From NCBI RefSeq assembly GCF_026626685.1, contig NZ_JAPNJX010000021.1, positions 41,329-105,328 on the forward strand: DNA of 64,000 bases. Direction: 5' to 3'. The notes beneath the pieces were generated by a model that saw nothing but the letters and a program-made list of their open reading frames with translations, had not been told where the DNA came from and searched no databases. Made by a program: the position numbers and the translations under genes. This document shows positions 371 to 61,558 of the stretch, piece after piece; positions within the stretch are counted from its first letter, which is position 1; each line of letters starts with the position of its first letter. The stretch comes from Nannocystis sp. SCPEA4 (lineage in GTDB: Bacteria > Myxococcota_A > Polyangia > Nannocystales > Nannocystaceae).

Positions 371-1495
371 ATGCTCCGCCCCTCGGTCGCCGACATCGCC
401 TTCGACGCCGCCCTGTTCGACGCCCTCCGTGCCGCCCTGGCTCGCGGCGAGCTGAGCCCCACGCGTTCGCGCTTGTCGGCGCCGCCACGGCCGCTCGGCG
501 AGGGCGACCTGCTCGACCTCGACCGCGCCGACGCGCGCCCGCGCTGGCGCGAGCGCGGCGAGGCGGCCCTGGGCGCGCGCAAGGTCGCGGCCCTGATCCT
601 CAACGGCGGCATGGCCACTCGCTTCGGCGGCGTGGTCAAGGGCGTGGTCCCGGTGCTACCCGATCGACCTGACCTTTCGTTCCTGGCCGTCAAGCTCGCC
701 GGGGTCCGCGCCGCCGGCGTCCCCGCGGTCGTCATGCACAGCTTCGCCACTGCGGCCGCCTCGGGTGATCACCTGGCGACCATCGGTTGGTCGGGCGTGC
801 CGGCGAGCGACCGTCTCGAGTTCCTGCAGTCGCTGCTCCCGCGCGTCCTGCCCGACGGCACCCCGCTGCTGAGCCTGCCGGGCGCCCACGCCCTGCCCGA
901 CACCACCGTCTACGCCGCGCCCGGCCACGGCGACACCCTCCGCCGCGTGCGTGACAGCGGCGTCGTCGCCGAGCTGCGCGCCCGCGGGGTCGAGCACGTC
1001 CTCGTCTCCAACGTCGACAACCTCGGCGCCTCGCTCGACCCGACGATCCTGGGCGCGCACCTCGAGGCCGTCGAGGCCGGCGCCGAGCTCAGCGTCGAGG
1101 TCGTCCCGCGCGCCCCCGACGACGCCGGCGGCTGCGTCGCCGAGGTCGACGGCCGCCCGATCATCGTCGAGTCGTTCCGCCTGCCCCCGGGGACAGCCCT
1201 CGATCAGTACCCGCACTTCAACACCAACACCCTGTGGATCTCGCTGAAGGCGCTCGAGCGCACGCACCCGCTGACGTGGTTCCCGGTCGAGCGCACCATC
1301 GAGTGGCCTGGCCGAGAGGACATGTCCGTCGTGCAATTCGAGCAGCTGATCGGCCAGCTCACCGAGTTCGCGCGCACCGCCTGCCTGCTGGTCGATCGCC
1401 GCCGCTTCTTGCCGATCAAGACGCGCGCCGACCTGGCCCAGGCGCGCCCGGCGATGGCCGAGATCGTCCGCGGCGTCGGCCTCGACCCCCGCTGA
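371..1495 (+). CDS. UDPGP-family nucleotide-sugar pyrophosphorylase (UTP-glucose-1-phosphate uridylyltransferase-like)
   Basis: 374 aa. Pyrophosphorylase motif ILNGGMATRFGG resembles the LNGGLGTxMG loop of eukaryotic-type UGPase/UAP family. GC3-rich codon usage. Sits upstream of pgi. Confidence 0.55.
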   Translation: MLRPSVADIAFDAALFDALRAALARGELSPTRSRLSAPPRPLGEGDLLDLDRADARPRWRERGEAALGARKVAALILNGGMATRFGGVVKGVVPVLPDRPDLSFLAVKLAGVRAAGVPAVVMHSFATAAASGDHLATIGWSGVPASDRLEFLQSLLPRVLPDGTPLLSLPGAHALPDTTVYAAPGHGDTLRRVRDSGVVAELRARGVEHVLVSNVDNLGASLDPTILGAHLEAVEAGAELSVEVVPRAPDDAGGCVAEVDGRPIIVESFRLPPGTALDQYPHFNTNTLWISLKALERTHPLTWFPVERTIEWPGREDMSVVQFEQLIGQLTEFARTACLLVDRRRFLPIKTRADLAQARPAMAEIVRGVGLDPR

Positions 1496-1568
1496 CCCAC
1501 CGCCTCATCGGGCGTGGGGCAGCTCTGGACAACGCCGTCCGCCCGCCCCGGAGCAACCTCGACGCGAA

Positions 1569-6505: not shown

Positions 6506-6650
6506 GCGGGGATTGTAGCGGCCGGCGGCGGGCTGCGCGAGCCTGTGCTTGTCGCTGGTGACGTCTGCTTATGGGGCGCTTGGGACATGTCCTTTTGAGC
6601 ATTGTCTTTTGGACATGACTGAATAGACAGTGTACTCGGCGGTGTGAGTG

Positions 6651-6950
6651 TCGTGCTTCGCGAACTGCCGAATGCGCCTCGCGGGCGGTCGGGGATGCGG
6701 TCCTCCGCCCAGTCCTCGCGGATGGACCCTCCTTCGTCGGGCCCATCTCGCTGCGGATGGTCGGAGGACCGCATCCCCGACCGCTGGCACGGCCCACTCG
6801 TGGGTGGCCCGAGCGCCGGTCGCGGGCTTCGCTGAGAGCTGTCTCTTCGAGCAGATTTATTCCGCCCGAGGGACGGCCGGGGCCGGCCATCCCTCGGACG
6901 GACCTCTGGGCGGAGTATCCGGCGCTCGCTCGTGACGCGACGATGTGCTG
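6651..6950 (-). repeat. Copy B of the ~297 bp structured interspersed element (inverted relative to copy A)
   Basis: The reverse complement aligns along its full length with 1569-1865 at more than 90 percent identity. Confidence 0.8.
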
Positions 6951-6952
6951 CG

Positions 6953-7145
6953 CGACAACCACGCGGTAACTCCGTCGCTCGCTCGTGACGCGACGATGAC
7001 TGCGAGACGACCGCGCTGCGACTCCGTCACTCGCTCCGCGACGACGTGCTGCACGACGACCATGCCGCGGCTCCGTCGCTCGCTCCGCGACGATCACTGC
7101 GCGACGACCACGCTGCGACTCCGTCGCTCGCTCCGCGACGATGAC
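6953..7145. repeat. Tandem ~42 bp repeat x about 4.5 abutting copy B
   Basis: Unit ...gcgacgaccacgctgcgactccgtcgctcgctccgcgacgatgactgc... The unit itself contains the terminal sequence of the element (cgctcgctcgtgacgcgacgatg). Confidence 0.75.
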
Positions 7146-7166
7146 TGCGAGACGACCGCGCCGGCG

Positions 7167-10589: not shown

Positions 10590-11189
10590 GTGATATGGTG
10601 CGCGCCGATGGCGTTTTGGACTCGCAAGGAGCGACCCGCCCCGTGTCCGAGCTGCGACGCGGCGCTGGACATCGGTCTCGTCAAGGACGGGAGCCCGACG
10701 TGCCCCGCGTGCGGGCAAGCGCTGGTGCCGGTGCGCGTCGCCGGCTTCTGGCGCCGCCTCGCGGCCGCGCTGGTCGACGCGGCGCTCCTGCTGGTGACGG
10801 CCGGCCCGCTGCACCTCGGCCTGCAGCGCGTGCTCGGCCAGCCGAGCCCGGTGCGCGGCGGGTTCTCGTGGGCCGGCCTGCTGCAGCTGCTCACCGTCGA
10901 CCCGCTCGAGATCCTCGTGTGGTTCGCGCCGCTGCTGGTGATGGTCGCGCTGTACTTCGTGCTGTTCATCGCCCTGTCCGGAAGGACACCCGGGCAGAAG
11001 CTCACCGGGATCCGCGTGGTCCACCGCGCCGGCGGCAAGGTCGGTCCGGTGCGCGCGACGGTGCGGTTCGCGGGCACCGCCGTCGGCCTGGTGCCCGGCG
11101 GCCTCGGCTCGCTGTGGATGGCCTTCGACCGCGAGAAGCGGGCCTTCCACGACTACCTGACAGGCACCTACGTCGTGAGGGAACAGTGA
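10590..11189 (+). CDS. RDD family membrane protein with N-terminal zinc ribbon
   Basis: CPSCDAAL...CPACGQAL zinc-ribbon. RDD domain with WRRLAAALVDAALL...RTPGQKLTGIRVV...FHDYLTGTYVV. Confidence 0.65.
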   Translation: MIWCAPMAFWTRKERPAPCPSCDAALDIGLVKDGSPTCPACGQALVPVRVAGFWRRLAAALVDAALLLVTAGPLHLGLQRVLGQPSPVRGGFSWAGLLQLLTVDPLEILVWFAPLLVMVALYFVLFIALSGRTPGQKLTGIRVVHRAGGKVGPVRATVRFAGTAVGLVPGGLGSLWMAFDREKRAFHDYLTGTYVVREQ

Positions 11190-14100: not shown

Positions 14101-16258
14101 GCCCGGCCTCGGGCTCGCGCCGGTGCCGGTGCCGCTCGGCCCCGAGGGCGGGGACAGCCCGCTGGTCGCCCGCTTCGCCGCCCTCTACTCCAAGCCGCTG
14201 CCGTCGGTCACCATCGACCTGTCCGATCGGCCCAATACTTTCGGACATGCGCGTAACGACATGTCCTCCGCGCCAGCCGAGAGCGGGCCCGACATGCCCG
14301 GCTGGATCGCCGACTCCGAGGCCTCGGGCATCGAGGATCCGCTGCCGGTGGCGGACGCGCTGCGGACCGCGGGCCTGGCCGCCGGCGCCGAACGGGGCCT
14401 CGACCTCGATCCCGCCGCGACCTTGCCGGGCGCGCCGCGGGTCGTCCTCGACGAGGCCACGCGGGCCCGGGCCGCCGCGCCCGACCCCGAGTTCGACGCC
14501 TGGCCGCGCGCCGCCTCCGACACGCCGACGGTCCTCGACCTCTCGCCGCCGCCGGCCCACGAGCCGCCGATGGTGGAGACGCGCGCGACACCCGACGCCA
14601 AGACGGTCCTCGACATCCCGCCGCTCGATCCCACGGTCCCGCCGTCGACGCTGATCCCCAACCTGATCGCCCCGCCCGGCACCCCGGGCGCCGGCCGCCG
14701 CCGTCGCACGCCCGCGCCGGTCGAGGACGAGCCGGTGCTCGTGATCCCGAAGACCCTGCGGCGCCAGGGCGGGCTCACGGCCACCCCGCACCCGATGGCG
14801 CGCCGCAGCGATCCGAGCGGCGAGGACAGCACGGCCACGCTGTCGATACCGACCACGCTGATCGGCCCGCGCAGCGGTCGGCGCCGCGGCAAGCAGGAGC
14901 CGCGCTCCGAGGCCTCCTCGAGCGCGCTCAGCATGCCGCGGCTGGTGCGCGAGCCGGGGACGGACGACGCGTCCGATGATCCGGCCAGCGCCTCGACCTC
15001 CCGCGGGGCCATCCGGCATGCCCCCGACGACTCGGCCAGCGCCTCGACCTCCCGCGGCGCCACGCGGCATGGCCCCGACGACTCGGCCAGCGCCTCGACC
15101 TCCCGCGGCGCCATCCGCCGCGGCCCCGACGATTCGGCCGGCGCCTCGACCTCCCGCGGCGCCATCCGACTCGGCCCCGACGATCCGGCCAGCGCCTCGA
15201 CCTCTCGCGGCGCCATCAAACATGTCCTTGAGGACATGCCCGCCGCGACCGGTCCCGAGGAGCAGGTCGCCAAGGACAGCCCGACTCCGGCCCCCGCCCC
15301 CGCCGAGGACCTGGCTGCCGAGGAGCCCGAGGCGACCAGCGCCGACGCGGTCGCGCAGGCGGCCCTCAGCGACGACGAGATCGACGCGATCATCGAGGTC
15401 TTCCTGCAGAACCCGGCCGAGTGGACCAGCGTGTCGCGGCTGCGGGCGCTCGACCAGCGCGGCCTGGCCCGCCTGGCCGCGCGCTTCCCCGGACCGATCG
15501 ACCTGGCGAACGCGACCAACTTCCCGCCGCCGAGCGCCCACGGCCCGCTGCTGCGCGCCTGCGTCGAGCTCGGGCACGCGGTCAGCCCGCACATCCTGGC
15601 GCTGTTCGCCAGCGTGCGGCCGCAGATCCGCTTCTACGCCGCGTTCCTGTTCCAGGAGCTGCGCGACCCCCGGTGCCTGCGCCCGCTCGGCGAGCTCGCG
15701 TTCGACACCGACCCCGACGTGCGCCTGATCGCCACCCGCGTGCTCGAGTCGTACAGCCGCGTGCCCGACTTCGTCGCGGTCGCCGCCGAGATCCGCGAGG
15801 AGCTCGAAAGCCGCGACCGCGACCGCCAGCTGCTCGCGGTCGAGGCCGCCGGCACGCTACGCGACACCCTCGCCGTGCCGCGGCTGATCGACCTCCTGGC
15901 CGTGCGCGACAAGCACGTCCGCGAGGCCGCGCTCGAGGCCCTGTGCTCGATCACCGCCAAGCACCACGGCTACCGCGCCGCCCGCTGGCGCGCCTGGTAC
16001 GCCGAGCACGGCCACGAGCCGCGCATCGAGTGGGTCATCGACGGCCTGCGCCACCGCGACGAGGCCGTCCGCCGCTGGGCCGCCGACGAGCTGGCGCGGA
16101 TCACCGGCCAGCGGATCCCGTTCCCCGCCGAGGGCGACCGCCGCAGCCGCGACCTCGCCCTGCGCGCCTGGCAGGCCTGGTGGGACAGCAACCGCGAGGA
16201 CTTCACGCCGGCAGCCGAGGCCCGCCCCGGCGATGCACCGGCCGCCGGCGAGGACTGA
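11186..16258 (+). CDS. Giant (1690 aa) multidomain protein: GspE-N-like N-terminus, Pro/Ala/Ser low-complexity core, C-terminal HEAT repeats
   Basis: GTG start overlaps the RDD stop (GTGA). N-terminus LLRHLEANGPLSRADLEAASRRQQQAGGSLDTAILELGLMTPLALDAL resembles the T2SS-E N-terminal domain. The C-terminus carries multiple HEAT/PBS-lyase-like repeats (VRLIATRVLES..., HVREAALEALCSI..., EAVRRWAADELARI). Confidence 0.6.
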   Translation: MSLLLRHLEANGPLSRADLEAASRRQQQAGGSLDTAILELGLMTPLALDALLQSACGLPGAPVRLLERGPTRPWEHVPRDLVDIGWAMPLAAEEGRLIVAVHPDLPDAKLGQLYRLIRGFYPVVAPECCLAKVAVERTGAILAPRYALILLDYLEALRSTTPTVHLPASDAPLQDIPVPADRQNAGPRPAAMSGPAVAARASTTPVSSESSGASSPAAAPVASDRAETAHPSAAAAADATARAPEPTADNSGATPASADLAAPSASAPPASPSPVPSDSGAPDRSDSGLEPGPAAPRPTVAPDRSDSTAEAASVPSGSTAADPAAPARSHSSDAAAASEPVSSDSTREVAPPAAVASAAHDLGAPRSSAAQAEADRSAEPASGHQPVSEASTAAPSSPVLKDSPASEPSGAQPVTGESTTAASEPRPEPEAPARAVSVPSDRAEEAAPRAATSITDAPAPEPAPSRATGTAPMPIAAAVANRPPVGMEAVPVAPDAPLVAPRGFEGFGGSSLSGLAIAPDTPLIILPPEGAAPERTGPAKFAVRETAAWPAAARERPSQSPPFERPAVAPASDRPSPVSSDSLAPAPAAHGPSNGVAHPAAAAAAAPITPVPTASSRPADPAQDAPVSSASHGMVESSSRKPPPPPQPMVMTLAQRLDAARATLATARERDRITEALVRAASLVAPRVALFGVKREGLRVLAAPGSALQLAEGVVLALPEGGLLDRAVTGQGPLHLLAEPSLSSAVGQPLGIPCIFEPVLAGGRTVLMLYLDRAGVAFDPRERTVLRELCDTARQSLEALLRLLGWVVPGGTPGAGPADRSRPAVRPHLATPVVTVDETDAASTDDAEDSAPQVAAAAPAEPTPEAEEPEAPLPPAGGTIEPGFGDSASTSRSRGRGNNRGRAVITLKNPIRRDELSTVTPLPVRPESSAATRAPTLVLEDAPTDADADADESGGLDAAELEREEEEDRRDGPGLGLAPVPVPLGPEGGDSPLVARFAALYSKPLPSVTIDLSDRPNTFGHARNDMSSAPAESGPDMPGWIADSEASGIEDPLPVADALRTAGLAAGAERGLDLDPAATLPGAPRVVLDEATRARAAAPDPEFDAWPRAASDTPTVLDLSPPPAHEPPMVETRATPDAKTVLDIPPLDPTVPPSTLIPNLIAPPGTPGAGRRRRTPAPVEDEPVLVIPKTLRRQGGLTATPHPMARRSDPSGEDSTATLSIPTTLIGPRSGRRRGKQEPRSEASSSALSMPRLVREPGTDDASDDPASASTSRGAIRHAPDDSASASTSRGATRHGPDDSASASTSRGAIRRGPDDSAGASTSRGAIRLGPDDPASASTSRGAIKHVLEDMPAATGPEEQVAKDSPTPAPAPAEDLAAEEPEATSADAVAQAALSDDEIDAIIEVFLQNPAEWTSVSRLRALDQRGLARLAARFPGPIDLANATNFPPPSAHGPLLRACVELGHAVSPHILALFASVRPQIRFYAAFLFQELRDPRCLRPLGELAFDTDPDVRLIATRVLESYSRVPDFVAVAAEIREELESRDRDRQLLAVEAAGTLRDTLAVPRLIDLLAVRDKHVREAALEALCSITAKHHGYRAARWRAWYAEHGHEPRIEWVIDGLRHRDEAVRRWAADELARITGQRIPFPAEGDRRSRDLALRAWQAWWDSNREDFTPAAEARPGDAPAAGED
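14976..15235 (+). repeat. Tandem 60 bp (20 aa) repeat x about 5 inside the giant protein
   Basis: Encodes DDSASASTSRGAIRHGP-like units repeated five times. Confidence 0.7.
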
Positions 16259-16274
16259 CCGCGCGCGACCGCAG

Positions 16275-16375
16275 CAGCCTGCGGTTCAGGACATGTCGTC
16301 CTGCACATGTCGCCGAGGACATGCGGTCAGTGACATGTGAAAAAGGACATGGCCTCACGGCCATGCCCTTTCAGT
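16275..16375. repeat. Array of about 6 (G)GACATG motifs in a convergent intergenic region
   Basis: aggacatgtcgtcctgcacatgtcgccgaggacatgcggtcagtgacatgtgaaaaaggacatggcctcacggccatgccc. Confidence 0.5.
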
Positions 16376-16391
16376 CATGGGGCCGCGCGGC

Positions 16392-17371: not shown

Positions 17372-18415
17372 GTGAGGACCAGCGTATCCCCGGCCCGTGA
17401 AGCTTGGTATAGGGCCGACGTGCCCCACGTCCCTGCCCTTTTGGCGCGACTGCGCGACGAGCCGCGCTACCTCGCCGCGCTGGCGGCGCTGCTGGTCGAC
17501 GAGGTCCTGGCAACACCGGCGCGTCGCTTGGTCGATCCGGTGCGGCTGACCCCGCTGCTCGTCACCGGCCTGCAGGCCGTCGCCGCCGCGCCCGGTCACG
17601 CGGCGTGGCTCGAGCAGCGCCTGCGCGACGCGCTCGGGCGGATCCGCCCGCGCCCGACCACGCTGCGGGCGCGGATCCCCGGCGATCTGCAGCCGCTGCT
17701 GCGCACCGTCGTCCGCCGGCCGTACACGCCGAGCCGCGCGCTCGTGCGGGCCGTCGTCGATCAGGCGACCACGCGCGACCTCTCGCGCACGATCCTCCAC
17801 ACCACCCTGCTCGACTTCGCCAAGAAGGTCGGCTCGATCTTGCCGGACACCAGCAAGATCCCCGGCGCCGGCGTGACCTCCAAGCTGTTCGGGGTCGCCA
17901 AGGGCGTCGCCTCGGTGGTCGGGCTCGACGCCTCGGTCGAGGAGCGCGTGCGCGGCTTCGTCGACGGGGCCGTCGGGCGCGTGATCGACATGATCGTCGA
18001 TCGCGTCAGCGACCCCAAGAACGCCGGCGACGGCGCGGCCTTCCGCGCCGACGTGCTGGCCTCGCTGCTCGAGCTGCCGGAGTCCGCCGTGCACGCCGAG
18101 TTGGTCAAGCTCGACCCGGCGGTGGTCGCCGCCGACCTCCACGCCGCCCTCGTCGGGCTCGCCGCGTGGGACCGCCTGCCGGTCGAGATCGAGGCCGCGC
18201 TGACGGAGGTCGTGAACGGCCTCGGCGACGCGACCATCGGCGAGCTGCTGGCCGGCTCGGGCGAGGTCGAGGCGTGGCGCGGCGCGGTCGAGGCCGAGCT
18301 GGCGCTCCACCTCGGGCACGCGTTCGCCGGCGAGCGCTTCGCGGCGTGGCTGGGACATCTGGTCGAAGGGACATTGCCGGAAGCGCAGGTCCCCGCGGAC
18401 AGCCCGACGACGTGA
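17372..18415 (+). CDS. Hypothetical protein
   Basis: 347 aa ORF with good GC3 bias. No recognisable motif. The 3' end overlaps a ~50 bp tandem duplication. Confidence 0.4.
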   Translation: MRTSVSPAREAWYRADVPHVPALLARLRDEPRYLAALAALLVDEVLATPARRLVDPVRLTPLLVTGLQAVAAAPGHAAWLEQRLRDALGRIRPRPTTLRARIPGDLQPLLRTVVRRPYTPSRALVRAVVDQATTRDLSRTILHTTLLDFAKKVGSILPDTSKIPGAGVTSKLFGVAKGVASVVGLDASVEERVRGFVDGAVGRVIDMIVDRVSDPKNAGDGAAFRADVLASLLELPESAVHAELVKLDPAVVAADLHAALVGLAAWDRLPVEIEAALTEVVNGLGDATIGELLAGSGEVEAWRGAVEAELALHLGHAFAGERFAAWLGHLVEGTLPEAQVPADSPTT

Positions 18416-18495
18416 GCGACGCGCTGGGGGAACCCGGCTGCAGGGACATTGCCCCAAGCGCAGGTCCCTTCGCACAGCCCGTCGACGTGAGCAGC
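18345..18495. repeat. Tandem duplication (~50 bp x2) containing GGGACAT half-sites
   Basis: gggacattgccggaagcgcaggtccccgcggacagcccgacgacgtgagc / gggacattgccccaagcgcaggtcccttcgcacagcccgtcgacgtgagc. Confidence 0.6.
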
Positions 18496-18535: not shown

Positions 18536-20935
18536 TCACGCTCCGGCGGCCTGGGCCACCTCGCCGAGCGGGCGGGCGCGGCCGATCGCCGGGTCGGCCG
18601 ACGCGAGCTCCTCGTAGGCCTCCGGGTTGGCCTGCTTGAGCGCCCCGCCGGGCGCGTCGGCGGTGCCGATGAGCTCGCGGATCCCGCGGGCCGATCCGTA
18701 GTAGTTGCCGTTGTTGTGGTCCTCGTCGCTGTTGCAGCGGCGGATCAGCGAGCGTGACAGGCGCGGCAGGTGCAGCATGTCGAGCGCCATCTCCCACAGA
18801 CCGTCGACGAAGTTCTGATCGGCCGGGAACTCGAGCAGGCCCGCGAGCAGGAGCAGCAGCCCGGCGCGCTGGCCGAGCGGCGTGTCGAGCGGGGCGGCGT
18901 CGCCGAGGTAGCCGAGGTCGATCGCGCGCCACCACGCCTCGGCGCCGACCAGCAGGCGCTTCAGCTCCTGCGCGCTGTGGCTGAGGTGGCTGTGGAACAG
19001 CACGTCGGCCGTCAGCGCCTCGCCGGCGGGGTCGCGGACGTAGCGGACCACCGCGGGCAGGCGCCCCAGCTCGCCGCGCGGGCCCTTGCCGGCCGGCACG
19101 TCGCGCGGGGGCTCGGCGCCGCTGAAGAAGCCGCCGGCCCGGAACGCGTAGAGGATCTCGGCCTGCCCCGGCAAGCTGTCCCAAAGTTCAGAGTACTGCG
19201 TGACCCGGTTGAGGCTGCCGGCGGCCCAGCCGAGCCCGCGCGCTGCGTCGCCGCTGATCTGCGACGGCGAGGCCCCGGGGTCGCGCGGGACGGCCGAGTC
19301 CTTGAGGCTCTCGGCGATCTCGACCAGGCGGAAGTCGAGGAAGCCGTCGTAGTAGTCGGCCTTGCCGTCGCGGTTGATGTCCTGGTAGCGCGCGACCACC
19401 AGCGGGTGGGCCGGGCCGATGAACTGCACGAAGTCCGGCGTGCGGCTCTGGCGGTGGTGCCACTGGGCCTTGCGGATCCGCTGGTCGATCGCCGCGAAGT
19501 CCTCCTCCTCGGCGAGCCCGCGCAGGATCGCCACGAAACAGTCGATGCCCTCGGACGCGACCACCTTGTCGTGCTCGCCGGTGCGGAAGTACGTCGAGTC
19601 CCAGCTCGAGAAGATGTCGGCGTCGGGGAACATGCGGGCGATGGCGAAACGCGTGGTCAGGCCGGCGCACTGGCAGTTCATCATCAGCTTGTAGCCGACC
19701 TGCTGGGTCTGGATCGCCGAGGCGCGCATGTCGTAGGCGCCGAGGTTGGCGTGGCGGCTGACCAAAAGGCCAGTGAAGAACTCCTGCGACATCTCGAAGT
19801 TCTCGTCGCGCGGCGAGGCCGAGCGGGCGAACACCACGATCTCGCGCCCGCCCTTGCCGACGAACGGCGCCTGCAGCACCTCGTAGCCGTCGCCCCACAT
19901 GTTCGGCGGCTTCGGCGTGCCCTCCGGCGCGGCGATCTTGGTGAAGCCGTATTTGGTCTGCAGCAGCTCGACCTCGCCGGGGAAGAACTCGGCCGCCGAG
20001 GCGAGCGCGAACCGCCACGGGCCGGACAGCTCGGCGTACGGCGGGGCCTGCCGCGACAGCGAGCGCAGCAGCGCCTGCGCGCGCGTCTGCTGCTCGGGGC
20101 GCAGGGCCGGGCCGCGCAGCGACAGCAGCGAGATCGCGTGCGCCCGCAGCTCGCTGCGCCCGCCGGGCCCGGCCTCCTCGTCGACCAGCCGGAAGATGCG
20201 CTCGGCGGCCGCGTCGGCGGCGGCGCGGAACTCGGGGTCCTTGAGCGCGGTGGCGACCACGTGGGACAGCACCGTCAGCGCCGCCGAGCGCAGCTGCACC
20301 GCGTCGTCGACCGCCGCGTTGGGCCCGCCCGGGGCCGCGGCCGCGAGCACGGCCTCGACCTGCCCGAGCAGCGCCCCGGCCTGGCTCGGCGTGAGCCGCT
20401 CGGTCCGCAGCGGCTCGTCGGGGAAGAACGCGCTCGGCGGGAACAGGCACTCGAAGCTCGACGTCCGCCGGGCCGAGATCCAGCGCGCCGCGGCGACGAA
20501 CACCGGCAGAGCGGACATGTCCTTCAGGGCAGGTCCGGCGGCGTCGCCGGCCAGCTCGCCGCTCGGCAGCAGGAACAGGGGCGCCGCGCCGTGGATACCC
20601 GCGGTCAGATCGAGCGCGGCCGCCGGCGGCTCGGGCCTGTCCTGAAGACCCTGTCCCGAGAGACTGGCGAGGCGCTGACGGACGGCGCGGCGGCCGGGGA
20701 AGTCGAGCAGGATCTTCTGGCCGACGGCGGACAGCAGCAGCGCCCTGTCGGCGGCCGAGGGCTCGCCGGCGAGGGTGAGGTGGTAGTTGCGCTCGCCGGT
20801 GAGGTGGAGCTGCACGCCGGCGCCGCTGCGGGCGCGCTCGAAGCTGCGGGTGGCCGTGCTGCCCGACTTGACGAGGACGGCGGCGAAGCGCGGCGCCTGG
20901 TCGCCGCGCCCGATCCGAATTTCGACTTCCTTCAT
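18536..20935 (-). CDS. Large hypothetical protein (~800 aa)
   Basis: GGAGGGG Shine-Dalgarno 7 nt upstream of the ATG at 20935. Long GC3-biased ORF lying downstream of the NtrC-type regulator. No recognised domain. Confidence 0.5.
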   Translation of the reverse strand: MKEVEIRIGRGDQAPRFAAVLVKSGSTATRSFERARSGAGVQLHLTGERNYHLTLAGEPSAADRALLLSAVGQKILLDFPGRRAVRQRLASLSGQGLQDRPEPPAAALDLTAGIHGAAPLFLLPSGELAGDAAGPALKDMSALPVFVAAARWISARRTSSFECLFPPSAFFPDEPLRTERLTPSQAGALLGQVEAVLAAAAPGGPNAAVDDAVQLRSAALTVLSHVVATALKDPEFRAAADAAAERIFRLVDEEAGPGGRSELRAHAISLLSLRGPALRPEQQTRAQALLRSLSRQAPPYAELSGPWRFALASAAEFFPGEVELLQTKYGFTKIAAPEGTPKPPNMWGDGYEVLQAPFVGKGGREIVVFARSASPRDENFEMSQEFFTGLLVSRHANLGAYDMRASAIQTQQVGYKLMMNCQCAGLTTRFAIARMFPDADIFSSWDSTYFRTGEHDKVVASEGIDCFVAILRGLAEEEDFAAIDQRIRKAQWHHRQSRTPDFVQFIGPAHPLVVARYQDINRDGKADYYDGFLDFRLVEIAESLKDSAVPRDPGASPSQISGDAARGLGWAAGSLNRVTQYSELWDSLPGQAEILYAFRAGGFFSGAEPPRDVPAGKGPRGELGRLPAVVRYVRDPAGEALTADVLFHSHLSHSAQELKRLLVGAEAWWRAIDLGYLGDAAPLDTPLGQRAGLLLLLAGLLEFPADQNFVDGLWEMALDMLHLPRLSRSLIRRCNSDEDHNNGNYYGSARGIRELIGTADAPGGALKQANPEAYEELASADPAIGRARPLGEVAQAAGA

Positions 20936-21098
20936 GTCAGCCCCTCCGAGAGGCAGCGATCGTAGCACGGGGCCACGACCGGCCCTGGGAGCGCACCAGG
21001 GCGCGCCCGCGCGCGGCGGGGATGGAGCGAACGAAGATGTCCTTTCGGACAGGCGTTCACCCGCGCGAGGACATGCATCGCGCGGTTCGATGTTCCGA

Positions 21099-26631: not shown

Positions 26632-28002
26632 TCAGTCCTCGCGGAGGTAGAGCCACGCGCCGGTGCCCTTGGTGCCCTCGCTGCGGACGAATTGCATGTC
26701 GTAGATGGAGGTGACCCGCTTCTTCACGGCGCCGACCTCGGCGATGATCTCGATGCGATAGACCCGCTCGGGCGCGATGGTGGCGATGTCGCTGAGGCCG
26801 CCGAGCTGCTCGCCCGAGCTCTTGTCCTCTTCGCTGTTCTCGCGGATCATCATGCCCTCGGGGATCCGCGGCAGGTTGGCCCGGTTGAGCGCCTGCGCGG
26901 CCGAGCCGCCGCCGCCGAGCGCGGCCAGCGGGTTCATGAACTTGTCGGGCTTCTCGACGAACTCCTTGAACGCCTTCATGTCGGCGAACAGGCTCATGGT
27001 CCGCGAGTCGACGATGTAGCGGGCCAGCGGCAGCGTCTTGATCAGGAAGTTCTCGCCCTCGGTCTTCCACTTGTCCTCGGCGGTGACCGAGTGGCGCAGC
27101 ACGAGCGCGATCTGGTCGGCGCTGGCGAAGTTGAGGTTGACCTTGCAGCCGCCGTAGACGGTGAGGTCGGCGGCGATCGCCGTCATCAGGTCGTCGTCGA
27201 CGCCCTGGACCAGGTGCAGCTCCTCGATGCTGTCGAGCCGGGCGTTGCGCGGCTGGTACGGGTCGAAGATCTCGGTGTAGCGGTAGCGCTCCTGCGTCGA
27301 CGACGACGCCAGCTTGACCATGTCCCACGACTTGATGTCCTCGTCGATGTAGTCGACGATCGCCTGGATGACGCTGGCCCGGGTGTAGCGCTGACCGTCG
27401 CTCTTCTCCTCGTCGAACAGCGGGTCGTAGAGCGTCGGCATCAGCATCGCCTCGAGCGTCTCGACGGTGCGCGCCTGCGAGTTGTCCTTGCCCTGCCCCG
27501 CCTGCGCCAGGCAGTTGACGTTGAGCTTGCCGCTCTCGGCCTCGACGCGGATCTCGAAGCCGCCGTGCTCGATGGCGAGGTCCTTGAAGGTCGAGTTGTC
27601 GAGGCCGACCAGCCCGGCGATGCCCTCGTGGCCGTCCTTCGAGCCGAACGCCGACATCAGGTACGGCGCGACCTGGGTGATGTCCCAGGTGCCGAGCATC
27701 TGCCGGAACTGCTTCTGGTTGAACACCATGCGCTGCAGCTCGAACAGCAGCAGCGACAGGCGCATCCCGCCGCGGGTCAGGTTGCGCGCCGAGATCTCGT
27801 CGCGCAGGTTGATCGCGGCCTGCCAGTCGACGCGCGTGGTGTAGCTGAACGCGGCCGTGAACGGCAGCAGCACGGCGATGCAGGCCAGGACCATCAGCAG
27901 GGCGATGCCGTGCTCCTTGCCGCCGGCGCGGCGCCGGCCCGCGCCGGACCTGGCCTTACGGACATGTCGCTCGGGCGGGGTATGTGCGGAGGACGCGGTC
28001 AT
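26632..28002 (-). CDS. gspK: Type II secretion system minor pseudopilin GspK
   Basis: N-terminal hydrophobic segment GIALLMVLACIAVLL, ~450 aa, operon position. Confidence 0.6.
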   Translation of the reverse strand: MTASSAHTPPERHVRKARSGAGRRRAGGKEHGIALLMVLACIAVLLPFTAAFSYTTRVDWQAAINLRDEISARNLTRGGMRLSLLLFELQRMVFNQKQFRQMLGTWDITQVAPYLMSAFGSKDGHEGIAGLVGLDNSTFKDLAIEHGGFEIRVEAESGKLNVNCLAQAGQGKDNSQARTVETLEAMLMPTLYDPLFDEEKSDGQRYTRASVIQAIVDYIDEDIKSWDMVKLASSSTQERYRYTEIFDPYQPRNARLDSIEELHLVQGVDDDLMTAIAADLTVYGGCKVNLNFASADQIALVLRHSVTAEDKWKTEGENFLIKTLPLARYIVDSRTMSLFADMKAFKEFVEKPDKFMNPLAALGGGGSAAQALNRANLPRIPEGMMIRENSEEDKSSGEQLGGLSDIATIAPERVYRIEIIAEVGAVKKRVTSIYDMQFVRSEGTKGTGAWLYLRED

Positions 28003-28011: not shown

Positions 28012-28737
28012 TCAGCGGGAGAAGTCGATGCGCTCCTGCAGCGGGATGAGGGCCTGGGTGACGTACTTGACCTCCTTGCCGAGGTCCGGGTCCCACACGC
28101 CCAGCGTGATCTTGACCCGCTCCGGCAGGCGGTTCGGCTGCATGTCCTGCTTCATCGTGCGCCACTCGTCGCGCCACTCGATGCGCTTGTTGTCCCAGTA
28201 CTTGACGTCGAACGACTTGATGTCCTCGCAGAACACGTAGGCCGGGAAGAACTCTTCGAGCTTCTCCGGCAGGTCGCCCATCAGCCGCCGCGCCTCGCGC
28301 TTGTACAGGTGGGTGCGCGTGCCGTCGTTCGGGTCCTTGAACAGGAAGTACTGGATGACCGACTGGTCGCTCTCGTTGGCGTCCTTGCGCATGCGGATGT
28401 GGGCGAACGCCGAGAACGTGAGGCTGTCGGAGTAGAACAGGTCGCGGCCCTCGAACAGCGTGTAGTGCTTCTCGTCCCCGGCCGGGCGGTTGTGCGACAG
28501 GTAGGCCATCGACAGCTCGGCGCCCATGCGCGCCAGGCAGTTGCGCAGCACCGCGTACTTCTGCTGCACCTTCTCGGCGTGGCGCATGCTGGTCGCGGTG
28601 GTGCTGAAGCTGGCGTAGACCGAGGCGATCATCATCGTGATCATGGTGACCGCGACGAGGATCTCGATCAGCGACATGCCGCGCTGGCTGGCTGCCCGCC
28701 GGGACATGGTCGAAGGGACATGGCGGATGGGACTCAT
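28012..28737 (-). CDS. gspJ: Type II secretion pseudopilin (GspJ-like)
   Basis: Prepilin-type N-terminus RGMSLIEILVAVTMITMM. Confidence 0.6.
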   Translation of the reverse strand: MSPIRHVPSTMSRRAASQRGMSLIEILVAVTMITMMIASVYASFSTTATSMRHAEKVQQKYAVLRNCLARMGAELSMAYLSHNRPAGDEKHYTLFEGRDLFYSDSLTFSAFAHIRMRKDANESDQSVIQYFLFKDPNDGTRTHLYKREARRLMGDLPEKLEEFFPAYVFCEDIKSFDVKYWDNKRIEWRDEWRTMKQDMQPNRLPERVKITLGVWDPDLGKEVKYVTQALIPLQERIDFSR

Positions 28738-43500: not shown

Positions 43501-43553
43501 CGGCTCTGGCACATGTCCATCGGGACATTTCCCGAAGGACATGTCTCTCGGTG

Positions 43554-48506: not shown

Positions 48507-48824
48507 GACAGCAGCGCTCGACGACGCTCAGCAGGTCTTTCGCGTCAGCGGGCCGAGCATATGCCACGCTCGTCGCCACGGACAAGGACCTCGCTCTCGC
48601 GTCAGGGGCTGCGCAGGAGCGTGCGACGACCTCGCGGTGGCCGGCCGAGAGTCCGGCGAAGGTGCCGATCGATCCGCCCGCTGGCGAGCCCGAAGGCCAC
48701 GAAGACGAGGACGAGGACGCCGGAGGTGCCGAACCTATCGGTGTTGTAGTCGGCTGTCCCGAAGGACACCTCGCCGCGCGCCCGCGCCCCTCCCGGCGCC
48801 CGCGTCCGACGCTACACTCGCCGC

Positions 48825-49631: not shown

Positions 49632-49701
49632 GGGGCAGCGCTCGCACCTGTCCGATTCGCCATGTCGGATGTCCTTTCGGACATCCACCCTCGCCGCCGC
49701 C

Positions 49702-54995: not shown

Positions 54996-55394
54996 TCACG
55001 CGGCCCCCCGGAGCGAGCGCGCCAGCTCGGTCTGCACCTTCTCGAGCAGCTCGAGCGCGAGCTCCAGCTGCGTGGTGGTGATCTCGAGCCGGTCCTCGGC
55101 GCGGCGCAGCTGCGCGCGCACCTCGTCGAGGTCGCCGAGGGTGGGCACGCGCCAGAAGTGCAGGACCTCCTCGGTGAGGTCGACCAGGTCGCGGTGGAGG
55201 TGGAACATCCGCTTGAGCCCGCGGCCGGCGAACCGCAGGTAGCGCGGGCTGGTGGCCAGACGCGTCATGACGCCGGTCGAGGCGCCCTCGAAGCGCATCC
55301 ACAGCTTGCCGGGCCCGCTCCTGGGGTCGGTGAGGTAGCCGACGAGCCGGAGGATCCGCGCGGTGACGTTTTGCGGTGCTGTCTCTTTGGACAT
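54996..55394 (-). CDS. Short coiled-coil PHA synthase partner (PhaE/PhaR-subunit-like)
   Basis: 132 aa, C-terminal coiled coil LDEVRAQLRRAEDRLEITTTQLELALELLEKVQTEL. Sits immediately upstream of phaC and is translationally coupled to it. Confidence 0.45.
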   Translation of the reverse strand: MSKETAPQNVTARILRLVGYLTDPRSGPGKLWMRFEGASTGVMTRLATSPRYLRFAGRGLKRMFHLHRDLVDLTEEVLHFWRVPTLGDLDEVRAQLRRAEDRLEITTTQLELALELLEKVQTELARSLRGAA

Positions 55395-55406
55395 GTCGAA
55401 AAAGTC

Positions 55407-59464: not shown

Positions 59465-59596
59465 CCGGCGTATCGGACGAATGCGGCCGTGTTCTGCCCG
59501 AAGAGACATGGTGTCGGCCGGCGGGGGCTCTCCAGCCACCTGCCCTCAGGGACAGGTCGCATGAACCCGGCGAGCGGCGACGCTCACCGCATGCCC

Positions 59597-60562
59597 TCAA
59601 GGACATGTCGCAGGAGCCAGCTTGCAGTCGACGAACCAGGCGGCGACGTCGCGGCACTGCGGGTCCGAGCCGTCCTGGACGCAGGCGGTGAAGGCGGCGC
59701 GGTCGCGGAGGGAGCACAGGCGCGGCAGCTCCCACTTGCGGTCGCGGCAGCTGTGGTCGCGCGGGTCGCAGGTGCTGCGCATCCAGGTCGCGGTACCGTC
59801 GCCGCGGAGGAACACGCGGTCGTCGACGTTGCGATCGTCGGTGAGCGTGCTGACGCGCAGGCTGGCGGCGGCCGCGGCGGCGAGGGCCTGGTAGAGGCAG
59901 GCGTCGCCGTCGCCCGGGCTGTCGACGCAGGGGCGCGGCGAGGCGCAGGCGTCGAGCAGCGCCAGCGCGACGTCCCCCGGGCACCGCCCGGCCGCGCACA
60001 CGCATGCGCACTCGGGCGGGTCGTCGGTCCCGAGTCCGCACTCGGTCCAGCCTGCAGGGTGCTCGGGCCCGGGGAAATCGCTGGCCTTGCGGCCCACGCG
60101 GCGCACGTGGACCACGTCGCCGATCTTCTTGTAGAAGGCGCTGTCGTAGTCCCCGTCGCCTGTCGACGCGCTCGCGGTGGCGCACACGCCCGCCGACTCG
60201 AGGGCGCAGGTGGCCCGGTCGGCGATGCGCTCGGTGGCGAACCAGATGCAACCGGCGGCGTCGCAGTCGGCCTCGGCGGCGTGCGATTCGCACGGCTCGA
60301 CGGGCGTGGTAGCGACCTCGGGCGCGACCTCGCCGGTCGCGGTCGTCGTCGCGGTCCCCATCGCGATGGTGGTCGCGTCGCCGGTCGAGGTCCCGGGCGC
60401 GCCGGTGGTGGCACCCTCGCTGGCCTGCGACGGAGCGGCGCCGTCCGAGTCGGTGCCGCGCGACGACGCGTCGGACCGGCCGGGGCTACACCCGGTCGTC
60501 ACCAGCCACGAGAGGAAGCAGGCGGCGCCAGCCGGGCGCGCGCCAAAACCAAACCGCACGAT
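59597..60562 (-). CDS. Cys-rich secreted lipoprotein
   Basis: GTG start. Lipobox LVTTGC. Thr/Gly linker. About 20 Cys in the C-domain. Confidence 0.45.
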   Translation of the reverse strand: MVRFGFGARPAGAACFLSWLVTTGCSPGRSDASSRGTDSDGAAPSQASEGATTGAPGTSTGDATTIAMGTATTTATGEVAPEVATTPVEPCESHAAEADCDAAGCIWFATERIADRATCALESAGVCATASASTGDGDYDSAFYKKIGDVVHVRRVGRKASDFPGPEHPAGWTECGLGTDDPPECACVCAAGRCPGDVALALLDACASPRPCVDSPGDGDACLYQALAAAAAASLRVSTLTDDRNVDDRVFLRGDGTATWMRSTCDPRDHSCRDRKWELPRLCSLRDRAAFTACVQDGSDPQCRDVAAWFVDCKLAPATCP

Positions 60563-61466: not shown

Positions 61467-61558
61467 GAACTCGGCGCTCCTCGCACATTCTTCAGGACAT
61501 GCCCGAAGCAGCATGTCCCATCAGACATGCCCAAAGCCGCATGCTCTCAGGACCAGCC

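What the first reader, a model, noticed from the sequence alone, without database searches (positions are those of the whole stretch)
16275..16375. Over-represented GGACAT/ATGTCC half-site family clustered in convergent intergenic regions
The perfect 10-mer GGACATGTCC occurs at 1318-1327 (inside the pyrophosphorylase gene), 6582-6591 and 20513-20522. Roughly 0.06 occurrences are expected by chance at this base composition. Many more 8-mer and half-site variants occur in two main arrangements. The head-to-head form is ATGTCC-TTTC-GGACAT near 49650-49690, and CTGTCC-N4-GGACAG elsewhere. The direct form is GGGACATGG-N5-GGGACATGG at 2937, 18350 and 28690. Arrays of 3 to 6 sites fill the short spacers between convergently transcribed genes at 16275-16375, 43505-43550, 49640-49700 and 59525-59620. 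They also sit about 70 bp upstream of sir2 and at several start codons such as cgacATGTCC at 55394. The pattern suggests either a binding site for an abundant DNA-binding protein (nucleoid, partition or regulatory) or small hairpin terminators, or both.
Basis: seen in the sequence. Interest (0 to 1): 0.7.

Follow-up and report, generated by a model that had tools for sequence, protein, structure and literature searches.

The report
Palindromic 14-bp repeat arrays at gene ends
The motif is real: a short palindrome (GGACATGTCC plus 4 free bases) repeated head to tail every 14 bases fills the gaps behind gene ends throughout the genus Nannocystis, where ordinary terminators are almost absent, and I found no description of it in the searchable literature.

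Summary
The window comes from Nannocystis radixulma (72% GC).

- **Structure.** The half-sites GGACA and TGTCC are not scattered. They sit on a rigid 14-bp lattice: a 10-bp palindrome GGACATGTCC plus 4 unconstrained bases. The region 16289-16386 holds seven such units.
- **Spacing.** Across about 460 kb of Nannocystis DNA, CATG-to-CATG distances peak at 14, 28, 42, 56, 70 and 84 bp. TGxCC-N4-GGyCA occurs 292 times, against 3-24 times for any other spacing.
- **Location.** Arrays occur at 2.1 per kb in convergent spacers, 0.6 in tandem spacers, 0.1 in divergent spacers and 0.08 in coding DNA. About 71% of convergent spacers carry at least one unit, usually tens of bases past a stop codon.
- **Terminators.** Canonical hairpin-plus-T-run terminators are at background level.
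- **Folding and conservation.** Neighbouring units pair into stems of up to 10 bp with tetraloops (z -4 to -6). In orthologous units the stems diverge 8% and the loops 33%.
- **Distribution.** An exact two-unit pattern hits 48 Nannocystis loci among 185,579 species genomes.

Best reading: a genus-level hairpin-repeat family resembling REP/BIME elements, acting at mRNA 3' ends. The factor that reads the fixed sequence is unknown. A double-stranded-DNA protein-binding array remains a serious rival.

The parts
16289..16386 (.). Main array. Seven 14-bp units (GGACATGTCGTCCT / GCACATGTCGCCGA / GGACATGCGGTCAG / TGACATGTGAAAAA / GGACATGGCCTCAC / GGCCATGCCCTTTC / AGTCATGGGGCCGC) fill the convergent spacer 16259-16391.
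   Evidence: Sequence read directly. Lattice chains. RNA fold z = -4.8 on the plus strand and -5.7 on the minus strand. The orthologous spacer in L068 also carries a 5-unit array, but with different units.
43509..43550 (.). Three-unit array (GCACATGTCCatcg GGACATTTCCcgaa GGACATGTCTctcg) filling convergent spacer 43501-43553.
   Evidence: It folds as one long hairpin on either strand: -25.9 and -24.3 kcal/mol, z = -4.3 and -5.1.
49644..49683 (.). Two degenerate units followed by a perfect hairpin unit ATGTCC-TTTC-GGACAT (49668-49683), in the convergent spacer between sir2 and the phytochelatin-synthase-like gene.
   Evidence: An 8-9-bp stem with a tetraloop is predicted on both strands.
59537..59612 (.). 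Scattered units in and around convergent spacer 59465-59596: CCTGCCC-TCAG-GGACAGG, and CATGCCC-TCAA-GGACATG, which overlaps the stop of the minus-strand gene.
   Evidence: Hairpins are predicted on the minus strand.
21036..21075 (.). Hairpin unit TGTCC-TTTC-GGACA plus one GGACATG half-site, about 25-60 nt past the stop of the sigma-54 activator gene (tandem spacer).
   Evidence: The stem is conserved in L068 with a changed loop (TTCG).
61495..61532 (.). Three-unit array (GGACATGCCCgaag CAGCATGTCCcatc AGACATGCCCaaag), 27-64 nt past the stop of gene 61559-62641 (minus strand).
6583..6620 (.). Perfect GGACATGTCC followed on the lattice by two further units, in the long spacer upstream of the DUF1963 gene and next to the 323-bp repeat.
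28693..28730 (.). Direct-type units (GGACATGGTCgaag GGACATGGCGgatg GGGAC) lying inside the prepilin leader-peptide codons of the T2SS J pseudopilin gene.
27946..27969 (.). Two units (GGACCTGGCCttac GGACATGTCGctcg) at the 5' end of the T2SS K gene.
   Evidence: Conserved in L068.
48755..48768 (.). Isolated hairpin unit TGTCC-CGAA-GGACA, 70 bp upstream of the sir2 start codon (ATGTCC at 48825).
   Evidence: Fold.
14215..14266 (.). Units on the lattice inside the disordered part of the giant ORF 11186-16258. The core CGACCTGTCC...TTTCGGACATGC is almost perfectly conserved (one mismatch in about 40 nt) in L068.
15218..15255 (.). ACATGTCC-TTGA-GGACATG hairpin unit plus one more lattice unit inside the same giant ORF.
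55380..55398 (.). CTGTCT-CTTT-GGACATG unit. Its ATG, read on the minus strand, is the first start codon of ORF 54996-55406.
1318..1327 (.). Perfect GGACATGTCC inside the UTP-glucose-1-phosphate uridylyltransferase gene. It is a solitary copy and not part of an array.
20513..20536 (.). Perfect GGACATGTCC plus one degenerate lattice unit inside gene 18536-20935.
   Evidence: Conserved at the general coding level in L068.

Best explanation
**What it is (shown).** A lineage-specific family of very short interspersed palindromic repeats.
- The unit is 14 bp: the palindrome GGACATGTCC plus 4 free bases. The same unit can be read as the hairpin (A/C)TGTCC-N4-GGACA(T/G).
- Units occur singly or as head-to-tail arrays of up to about 7 on a rigid 14-bp lattice.
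- They sit overwhelmingly just past gene 3' ends, in Nannocystis and close uncultured relatives.

**How it most likely works (inferred).**
- The arrays are transcribed as the tails of mRNAs. In convergent spacers this happens from both sides.
- They fold into tetraloop hairpins. Because every unit carries the same self-complementary 10-mer, any two neighbours can pair into a 10-bp stem with the 4-nt spacer as the loop.
- In a genome that almost lacks hairpin-plus-U-tract terminators, these hairpins define and protect 3' ends. They could block 3'-to-5' exonucleases and attenuate read-through, as E. coli REP/BIME elements do.

**Spread and maintenance (inferred).**
- Arrays grow and shrink by replication slippage on the self-complementary lattice.
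- The invariant stem sequence implies a sequence-specific reader. Candidates are a REP-type tyrosine transposase or an RNA/DNA hairpin-binding protein. None was identified.
For: **Reality and structure.**
- 14-bp lattice in the window and in 417 kb of Nannocystis DNA: CATG-CATG distance counts are 135 at 14 bp, 55 at 28, 45 at 42, 23 at 56, 15 at 70 and 17 at 84, over a background of about 5.
- Multi-unit arrays: 93 with 2 units, 14 with 3, 8 with 4, 7 with 5 and 5 with 6, against none in a Markov-2 control.
- Spacing is fixed at N4: 292 occurrences against 3-24 for N0-N10.

**3'-end location.**
- Arrays per kb: convergent 2.07, tandem 0.62, divergent 0.10, coding 0.077.
- Spacers with at least one unit: 71% convergent, 36% tandem, 23% divergent.
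- In tandem spacers, units lie a median 49 nt from the upstream stop against 145 nt from the next start. In convergent spacers the median distance to the nearer stop is 28 nt.

**Hairpin potential.**
- Fold z-scores of -4.3 to -5.7 for arrays on both strands.
- The 6th pair appears as A..T or C..G more often than as mixed forms.
- Isolated units are mostly CTGTCC-N4-GGACAG, and some carry extra complementary flanks of arbitrary sequence.
- The third pair shows T-A to C-G co-variation across the spacer (OR 3.0, p = 0.003) but not across CATG.

**Constraint.**
- In orthologous units, stems diverge 8.3% (35/420) and loops 33% (56/168). Codon position 3 diverges 14.8% and alignable intergenic DNA 16.1%.
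- The hairpin at 21038 keeps its stem but has a changed loop in L068.

**A vacant niche.** Canonical terminators are at background level.

**Slippage.** Many neighbouring units share identical spacers, such as tcac/tcac, acat/acat and atcg/atcg.

**Lineage specificity.** 48 of 65 exact two-unit matches across one genome for each of 185,579 species are Nannocystis.

**Known precedent.** E. coli REPs act as partial terminators and mRNA stabilisers in 3' UTRs (bioRxiv 10.64898/2026.03.23.713779).
Against: - **No sign of selection on sense-strand RNA.** In tandem spacers, G-U-compatible mismatches (39) are no commoner than A-C mismatches (32). Loop composition is symmetric with respect to the upstream gene.
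- **Weak co-variation.** It is modest and partly explained by transition bias and by neighbours within arrays. Among double variants at the third pair, 11 of 32 are Watson-Crick, about the expected 35% (my calculation). For isolated units the 6th-pair test is not significant (p = 0.14).
- **Asymmetric arrays.** Some arrays, especially in relatives L071 and L074, are direct repeats of GGACATGCCC, which leave a C-A mismatch in the 5-bp stem.
- **Wrong side of a terminator.** In the few spacers that also hold a hairpin-plus-T-run, some units lie past it and so outside the upstream mRNA.
- **Possible inflation of stem conservation.** Slippage could align paralogous units, which would make stems look more conserved than they are.
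- **No direct data.** No transcript data were available, no transposase or binding protein was found, and membership in the RAYT-REP family is untested.
Confidence: 0.45

Rival explanations
1. The arrays are binding sites on double-stranded DNA for an abundant dimeric protein. Each dimer would read one TGTCC-N4-GGACA unit, with half-site centres 9 bp apart, and neighbours would pack cooperatively every 14 bp. Possible roles at gene ends are a transcription roadblock, a topological or nucleoid boundary, or recruitment of gyrase.
For: - The sequence is strictly conserved while the spacer is free, and the 5-N4-5 geometry is rigid.
- Degeneracy is strand-symmetric and shows no RNA wobble signature.
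- The bases next to the half-sites show independent preferences (Y after TGTCC, R before GGACA) without pairing. This looks like a longer half-site, RGGACAK.
- Direct-repeat arrays that keep only GGACATG exist.
- Some units lie beyond canonical terminators.
- Convergent gene ends are where positive supercoils build up. From my own knowledge, BIME-2 elements bind gyrase.
Against: - Co-variation at the 3rd and 6th pairs, and extra complementary flanks of arbitrary sequence, are not expected for independent half-site reading.
- Abutting 14-bp sites leave little room for typical helix-turn-helix dimers.
- No candidate protein was identified.
- Sites are rare exactly where regulators usually act, in divergent spacers.
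Confidence: 0.25
2. The repeats are selfish or neutral: a micro-satellite-like palindrome that expands by slippage and hairpin-templated copying. It persists only where it does no harm, behind genes, and has no cellular function.
For: - Neighbouring units share identical spacers, and some arrays are whole-array palindromes.
- Units turn over quickly between species. The orthologous spacer at 16259-16391 carries unalignable arrays in L068.
- Loops diverge at twice the neutral proxy.
- Copies are tolerated in frame within low-constraint coding DNA, and 42 bp equals 3 units or 14 codons.
Against: - Slippage alone cannot place the same 10-mer at thousands of separate loci, or keep it the same across all sampled Nannocystis species and more distant relatives.
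- Stems diverge at about half the neutral rate despite an ascertainment bias in the opposite direction.
- About 70% occupancy of convergent spacers is very high for junk DNA.
Confidence: 0.13
3. The motif is a DNA-uptake-type sequence, analogous to the DUS of Neisseria and the USS of Pasteurellaceae. It would accumulate by biased uptake and recombination, with inverted pairs surviving in terminator-like positions.
For: - It is a genus-specific short motif at about 0.7 per kb (42 GGACATG/CATGTCC in 64 kb).
- Inverted pairs lie behind genes, as with DUS and USS. About half of those, and 70-90% of their inverted pairs, lie in predicted terminators (bioRxiv 10.1101/2025.10.24.684340).
- Some copies lie inside genes.
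Against: - Known uptake sequences are 9-12-nt asymmetric motifs. They do not form rigid 14-bp tandem lattices.
- The half-site here is only 5-7 nt.
- Density in coding DNA is 10-fold lower than in spacers.
- As far as I know, neither competence nor an uptake receptor is known for Nannocystis.
Confidence: 0.06
4. The motif is a chance or codon-usage by-product (for example Asp-Met-Ser GAC-ATG-TCC, or Met-Ser gene starts) with no real clustering.
For: - Several single ATGTCC copies coincide with Met-Ser start codons (3698, 48825, 55394).
- Solitary copies inside genes evolve like the surrounding codons.
Against: - Matches at 9 or more of 10 positions: 22 against 1.0 expected.
- Multi-unit arrays: 127 against 0 in the control.
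- The lattice peaks.
- A 27-fold excess in convergent spacers over coding DNA.
Confidence: 0.01

Closest known systems
REP / BIME elements of enterobacteria and pseudomonads (REPINs mobilised by RAYT transposases)
   Same: - Short palindromes in hundreds to thousands of extragenic copies.
- Specific to a lineage.
- Found behind genes and between convergent genes, and avoiding promoters.
- Occur singly or in regular clusters that grow by duplication.
- Predicted hairpins in single-stranded DNA or mRNA.
- Conserved arms with a less conserved spacer (PMC3116915).
- Shown to act as partial terminators and mRNA stabilisers in 3' UTRs (bioRxiv 10.64898/2026.03.23.713779).
   Different: - The unit here is far shorter: 14 bp with a 10-bp perfect palindrome, against roughly 20-40 nt for an imperfect REP palindrome.
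- Units abut with no linker motifs, on a rigid 14-bp lattice.
- Every unit is self-complementary, so any neighbours can pair.
- There is no GTAG/CTAC-type tetranucleotide.
- No RAYT gene was found or could be searched for genome-wide.
Inverted-repeat DNA uptake sequences (DUS/USS) in Neisseriaceae and Pasteurellaceae
   Same: - A lineage-specific short motif at roughly one per kb.
- Inverted pairs form stem-loops behind genes.
- Some copies lie inside coding DNA.
   Different: - Uptake sequences are asymmetric 9-12-mers and do not form tandem lattices.
- Here the motif is itself a palindrome, with a fixed 4-bp spacer and arrays of up to 7 units.
- Nothing links it to competence.
Tandem palindromic operator arrays such as the MetJ met-boxes (8-bp palindrome repeated 2-5 times) or the heptad arrays of the omega repressor
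   Same: A short palindromic or heptad unit is repeated on a rigid lattice with no linker. This suggests that one protein dimer per unit could bind cooperatively. The comparison rests on my own knowledge and is an analogy only.
   Different: Those arrays sit in promoters of a few operons or on plasmids. Here the arrays are depleted from divergent (promoter) spacers and spread over a large fraction of gene 3' ends.
Intrinsic (Rho-independent) terminators
   Same: Stable stem-loops just past stop codons. They are bidirectional in convergent spacers. One case (16340-16375) has A- and T-rich flanks.
   Different: - No U-tract follows the hairpins in general.
- All stems share one sequence.
- A few spacers also contain a separate canonical terminator.
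Mesorhizobium 44-nt palindrome CCCCCCTC-TGTCC-TGCC-GGACATGTCC-GGCA-GGACA-GAGGGGGG
   Same: It contains exactly the same two-unit core and is repeated across 14 Mesorhizobium species.
   Different: - It is a single long perfect palindrome with G/C-rich clamps and fixed, mutually complementary spacers.
- There are 1-2 exact copies per genome rather than a dense lattice family.
- The relationship may be coincidental.

Membership tests
REP/BIME (REPIN-RAYT) elements | Many dispersed extragenic copies of one short palindromic sequence within a genome | tested here: met
   - 343 single units and 127 arrays of 2 or more units in 417 kb, against 150 singles and 0 arrays in the control.
- Intergenic density is 10-27 times the coding density.
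REP/BIME (REPIN-RAYT) elements | Imperfect palindrome of about 20-40 nt forming a hairpin; doublets in inverted orientation form a longer hairpin | tested here: inconclusive
   - Hairpins are predicted, with z from -4 to -6.
- The unit is only 14 bp, and the best stems (10 bp) arise from two abutting identical palindromes, not from a REP doublet with a spacer.
REP/BIME (REPIN-RAYT) elements | Conserved tetranucleotide (GTAG/CTAC type) at the foot of the hairpin | tested here: not met
   Flanking positions beyond +/-3 show no conservation. The only invariant tetranucleotide is the central CATG of the palindrome.
REP/BIME (REPIN-RAYT) elements | A cognate single-copy RAYT (Y1 transposase) gene flanked by the repeats | not testable with these tools
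   - tblastn with E. coli RayT found nothing in 538 kb. That sample is under 1% of the pooled genomes, so the result is uninformative.
DNA uptake sequences (DUS/USS) | Asymmetric 9-12-nt motif, frequent in both coding and non-coding DNA | tested here: not met
   The motif is a palindrome with 5-7-nt half-sites. Perfect units occur at 0.069 per kb in coding DNA against 0.69 per kb in spacers.
DNA uptake sequences (DUS/USS) | Motif-dependent DNA uptake through a dedicated receptor in a naturally competent organism | not testable with these tools
   This requires uptake or transformation assays.
Intrinsic terminators | G+C-rich stem-loop immediately followed by a U-tract | tested here: not met
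   - T frequency downstream of units is 0.09-0.47 with no run.
- Hairpin-plus-T-run sites are at or below the shuffle expectation in the window, and are present in only 4-18% of 3' spacers.
Transcription-factor operator arrays | Location in promoter or 5' regulatory regions of target genes | tested here: not met
   - Divergent spacers hold 0.10 arrays per kb against 2.07 in convergent spacers.
- Units in tandem spacers lie near the upstream stop.
Known RNA families (Rfam 15) | Match to a curated covariance model at its gathering score | tested here: not met
   No match in the whole window.
Minisatellite / VNTR-type tandem repeats | Head-to-tail copies of one unit that vary in number between relatives | tested here: met
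   - Period-14 arrays, some with identical neighbouring units.
- 7 units against 5 in the orthologous spacer of L068.
- Unlike ordinary VNTRs, the same unit recurs at very many loci.

The most novel reading that the evidence does not exclude
Nannocystis and its relatives have largely replaced U-tract intrinsic terminators with a dedicated, sequence-specific 3'-end system. A so far unknown protein would recognise the (A/C)UGUCC-N4-GGACA(U/G) hairpin or its DNA form. It would work much as SLBP recognises the 6-bp/4-nt histone stem-loop, or as mTERF-type roadblocks bind DNA. It would terminate or cap transcripts in both directions, and the 14-bp lattice would set how many copies bind.
Probability: 0.15. 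Interest if true: 0.85.

Novelty: new variant of a known kind. Interest (0 to 1): 0.62.

Why it matters
- **Gene expression in GC-rich genomes.** If the arrays mark or protect mRNA 3' ends, they would explain how a 72% GC, 11-13-Mb myxobacterial genome with almost no recognisable intrinsic terminators ends and insulates its transcripts, especially between convergent genes. They would also give a simple sequence rule for annotating transcript ends in this genus.
- **An unidentified reader.** One invariant 10-mer maintained at what extrapolates to thousands of loci points to a hairpin- or DNA-binding reader yet to be found: a transposase, a terminator or stabiliser factor, or a nucleoid protein.
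- **Practical uses.**
  - The motif is a compact genus marker for binning metagenomic contigs.
  - It is a likely source of assembly and slippage errors.
  - It is a candidate part for controlling expression in Nannocystis, a genus studied for natural products.

Tried and rejected
- **Maximal-order Markov k-mer model.** It hid the motif because the sub-words themselves are enriched. Lower orders were needed.
- **Rfam.** No family matched the window at gathering score. Low-score microRNA-model hits on the 323-bp repeat merely reflect its long hairpins.
- **Literature.** Nothing on a Nannocystis repeat or on GGACATGTCC in bacteria. No myxobacterial RAYT/REPIN report surfaced.
- **Viral contigs.** No exact two-unit match.
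- **RNA-level signatures.** Excess G-U wobble and sense-strand loop bias were both absent.
- **Array polarity relative to the upstream gene.** Weak and not significant: 12 against 5, and variance test p = 0.044.
- **Order of units relative to canonical terminators.** Too few terminators to decide.
- **Genes flanked by units on both sides, as RAYT candidates.** Only ordinary genes were found.
- **E. coli RayT tblastn against 538 kb.** Nothing found, but uninformative.
- **Methyltransferase link.** Not supported. L069 keeps the methyltransferase, acyl-CoA dehydrogenase and T2SS neighbourhood but has no arrays.
- **Other ideas considered and dropped.**
  - CsrA-type GGA sites: here the GGA lies in the stem, not the loop, and the arrays lie behind genes rather than at ribosome-binding sites.
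  - DnaA boxes (TTGTCCACA): the bases following TGTCC are not conserved.
  - CRISPR: the spacers are only 4 bp.
  - The p53-type decamer resemblance is coincidental.
Full report
**Source and gene context**

An exact protein look-up places the window on contig JAQNDN010000023.1 of assembly GCA_028369095.1. The JAQNDN records are titled Nannocystis radixulma strain NCELM. The window is 72% G+C.

I built a gene map from codon-position G+C and a codon log-odds model and checked it against Pfam. It shows ordinary housekeeping genes and a type II secretion operon. The region 16259-16391 is the spacer between two convergent genes. One is the giant ORF ending at 16258. The other is a proline-rich ORF on the minus strand ending at 16392.

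**Checking the observation**

GGACATGTCC occurs at 1318, 6583 and 20513, against 0.03 expected. Other counts:
- GGACAT/ATGTCC: 64 against 17-27 expected.
- AGGACATG and ACATGTCC: 19 each against about 1 (Markov orders 1-2; about 3 under order 3).
- 10-mers matching GGACATGTCC at 9 or more of 10 positions: 22 against 1.0.

There are two small corrections: 6583 rather than 6582, and the pair at 18353/18369 is 16 bp apart.

Same-strand GGACA copies are spaced 14, 28 and 42 bp apart. Opposite-strand copies are at -9, +5 and -23. This is what a repeating 14-bp unit TGTCC-N4-GGACA produces, or equally GGACATGTCC plus 4 bases. The flagged region is a tandem array of seven such units, 16289-16386.

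**Distribution across genomes**

I scanned one genome for each of 185,579 species for the exact two-unit pattern TGTCCNNNNGGACATGTCCNNNNGGACA. My own estimate of the chance expectation is about 0.5 hits. The scan returned 65 loci:
- 48 from Nannocystis (N. punicea, bainbridge, pusilla, exedens, radixulma, strain RBIL2 and several MAGs);
- 14 from Mesorhizobium;
- 3 singletons.

The Mesorhizobium hits are a different object: a 44-nt perfect palindrome with the same core. No viral contig matched.

Arrays also fill convergent spacers in more distant uncultured relatives (L071, L073, L074). L072 has a single unit. L069, whose orthologue is 70% identical, has none in 17.8 kb.

**Anatomy, from the window plus 48 Nannocystis loci (417 kb; about 460 kb once L068 and L071 are added)**

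- Units matching at 8 or more of 10 positions form arrays of 2 (93), 3 (14), 4 (8), 5 (7) and 6 (5) units. A Markov-2 control gives 150 singles and no arrays.
- CATG-CATG distance counts are 135 at 14 bp, 55 at 28, 45 at 42, 23 at 56, 15 at 70 and 17 at 84, over a background of about 5.
- The unit logo is GGA-CATG-TCC followed by four nearly free, somewhat A/T-richer bases with a weak YYRR tendency.
- The spacer length is fixed. TGxCC-Nn-GGyCA occurs 292 times for n = 4 and 3-24 times for every other n from 0 to 10.
- Many neighbouring units share identical spacers, which points to slippage. Some arrays are palindromic as a whole.

**Location**

| Region type | Arrays of 2 or more units per kb | Spacers with at least one unit |
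|---|---|---|
| Convergent spacers | 2.07 | 71% |
| Tandem spacers | 0.62 | 36% |
| Divergent spacers | 0.10 | 23% |
| Coding DNA | 0.077 | not applicable |

These figures exclude the matches and spacers that were used to select the loci. The spacer percentages fit a probability of roughly 35-45% per gene 3' end.

In tandem spacers, units lie a median 49 nt from the upstream stop and 145 nt from the next start, and 75% fall in the first half. In convergent spacers the median distance to the nearer stop is 28 nt. Many arrays start 2-20 nt after, or overlap, a stop codon.

Perfect units also occur in coding DNA at about one tenth of the intergenic density. Examples:
- the leader-peptide codons of the T2SS J pseudopilin;
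- the disordered part of the giant ORF, where one core is almost perfectly conserved in L068.

Three units make 42 bp, or 14 codons, so array changes in steps of three units keep the reading frame.

**Terminators**

Classical hairpin-plus-T-run terminators are at background level. My scan found them in 5 of 130 tandem, 8 of 45 convergent and 4 of 52 divergent spacers. The tool's own scan found 1 per 20 kb against 3.5-4.4 in shuffles. The motif hairpins are therefore the dominant recognisable structure behind genes in this genus. They are not followed by T-runs themselves. In a few spacers they sit beside a canonical terminator.

**Structure or sequence?**

Evidence for hairpins:
- Spacer 16259-16391 folds with z = -4.8 on the plus strand and -5.7 on the minus strand.
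- The 3-unit array at 43501-43553 folds as one long hairpin of about -25 kcal/mol, z = -4.3 and -5.1.
- By inspection, two abutting full units form a 10-bp stem with the 4-nt spacer as loop, because each unit is the same self-complementary 10-mer.
- The base pair outside the 5-bp core is A..T (31) or C..G (25) more often than A..G (16) or C..T (11).
- Truly isolated units are mostly CTGTCC-N4-GGACAG, and some have further complementary flanks of arbitrary sequence.
- The third pair co-varies across the spacer (OR 3.0, p = 0.003) but not across CATG.

Evidence against a purely RNA-structural reading:
- G-U-compatible and A-C mismatches are equally common on the sense strand (39 against 32).
- Loop composition is symmetric with respect to transcription.
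- Array polarity is weak.
- Some of the co-variation can be explained by transition bias and by neighbours within arrays (my calculation).
- Some arrays are direct repeats of GGACATGCCC.

**Constraint**

In 42 orthologous unit pairs from seven species pairs, stem positions differ at 8.3% (35/420) and loop positions at 33% (56/168). In the same alignments, codon position 3 differs at 14.8% and alignable intergenic DNA at 16.1%. The stems are therefore maintained while the spacers are free or turn over.

Slippage could align paralogous units, which would exaggerate both effects. Anchored single units show the same pattern, for example 21038 in the window against L068. Whole arrays turn over quickly: the orthologous spacer of L068 has five units that cannot be aligned to the window's seven.

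**Interpretation**

The best-supported reading is a lineage-specific family of very short palindromic hairpin repeats at gene 3' ends, closest in kind to REP/BIME elements. Those elements share the location, the clustering, the conserved-arm and free-spacer pattern, and the lineage specificity (PMC3116915). A 2026 preprint shows that they act as partial terminators and mRNA stabilisers in 3' UTRs.

The steps shown here are the lattice, the distribution, the 3'-end bias, the hairpin potential, the stem conservation and the scarcity of canonical terminators. The steps inferred are transcription of the arrays, their effect on 3' ends, growth by slippage, and the existence of a sequence-specific reader.

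Membership in the RAYT-REP family is not established. The tetranucleotide feature is absent, and the transposase association could not be tested.

The main rival is a cooperative double-stranded-DNA binding array for an abundant protein. It explains the strand symmetry and the fixed sequence at least as well, and it cannot be excluded without experiments. Uptake-sequence, neutral-satellite and codon-usage explanations are progressively less likely, for the reasons given under each.

**Novelty**

Full-text searches found no description of this motif or of any Nannocystis repeat family, and Rfam has no match. Short dispersed palindromes behind genes are a known kind. The 14-bp abutting lattice of a self-complementary 10-mer, its very high occupancy of gene ends and its genus-wide conservation make this a new variant of that kind.

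Noticed in passing
window 1563-1885 (+), 6632-6954 (-), 61166-61466 (+): A second, unrelated interspersed repeat of about 300-323 bp, in three copies that are 94-97% identical. It is predicted to fold into two long hairpins (consensus energy -188 kcal/mol) and has no Rfam match above threshold. It looks like a MITE or a structured non-coding element. Motif arrays (6583-6620, 61495-61532) and short tandem repeats (about 1860-1990 and 6930-7190) lie next to copies.
   Followed up: partly
L005, L008, L010, L014, L019, L038, L041, L044, L053, L054, L058, L060, L065, L067 (Mesorhizobium): A 44-nt perfect palindrome, CCCCCCTC-TGTCC-TGCC-GGACATGTCC-GGCA-GGACA-GAGGGGGG, is shared by 14 Mesorhizobium species at different loci. 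In L058 it is embedded in a much longer inverted repeat. It has the same two-unit core as the Nannocystis motif. Whether this is coincidence or reflects a related reader is unknown.
   Followed up: partly
window 28693-28737 (minus-strand gene 28012-28737): The prepilin leader peptide of the T2SS J pseudopilin (MSPIRHVPSTMSRRAASQRG, followed by MSLIE) is encoded by motif units. Repeat DNA therefore appears to have been absorbed into, or tolerated in, a low-constraint coding segment. Several gene starts also use the ATG of a CATG unit (3698, 48825, 55394).
   Followed up: partly
window 11186-16258: A giant ORF of about 1,700-1,970 aa is largely disordered, with a HEAT-like C-terminus. It contains a 51-bp (17-aa) tandem repeat in five copies (14922-15246). 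It also holds at least four perfect CTGTCC-N4-GGACAG or ATGTCC-N4-GGACAT units (11716, 12007, 12379, 15223). G+C at codon position 3 dips at the two motif clusters (14140-14260 and 15160-15220).
   Followed up: partly
L069 (metagenome ERZ1066117, 17.8 kb): This relative has a 70%-identical orthologue of gene 17441-18415 and the same neighbourhood of acyl-CoA dehydrogenase, N6/N4 methyltransferase and T2SS. It carries no motif unit at all, whereas relatives at 45-52% identity (L071, L073, L074) do. It is a useful contrast for phylogenetic profiling of the unknown reader.
   Followed up: partly
window 63676-63713: An A/T-rich stretch, GGACATGTTTttcaGAACATGTTCtaaaGGCCTAGTCC, lies on the 14-bp lattice inside what my gene caller took as one ORF (62750-64000). 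The epimerase-type domain ends before it, so a gene boundary or a frameshift probably lies here.
   Followed up: no
window 18353-18392 and 18444-18467; L068 10949-11086: A block of about 35-42 bp, GGACATTGCC(G/C)GAAGCGCAGGTCC(C/T)CGCGGACAG, equals about three lattice units. It straddles the 3' end of gene 17441-18415 and is present three times in L068. It is an example of multi-unit duplication across a stop codon.
   Followed up: partly
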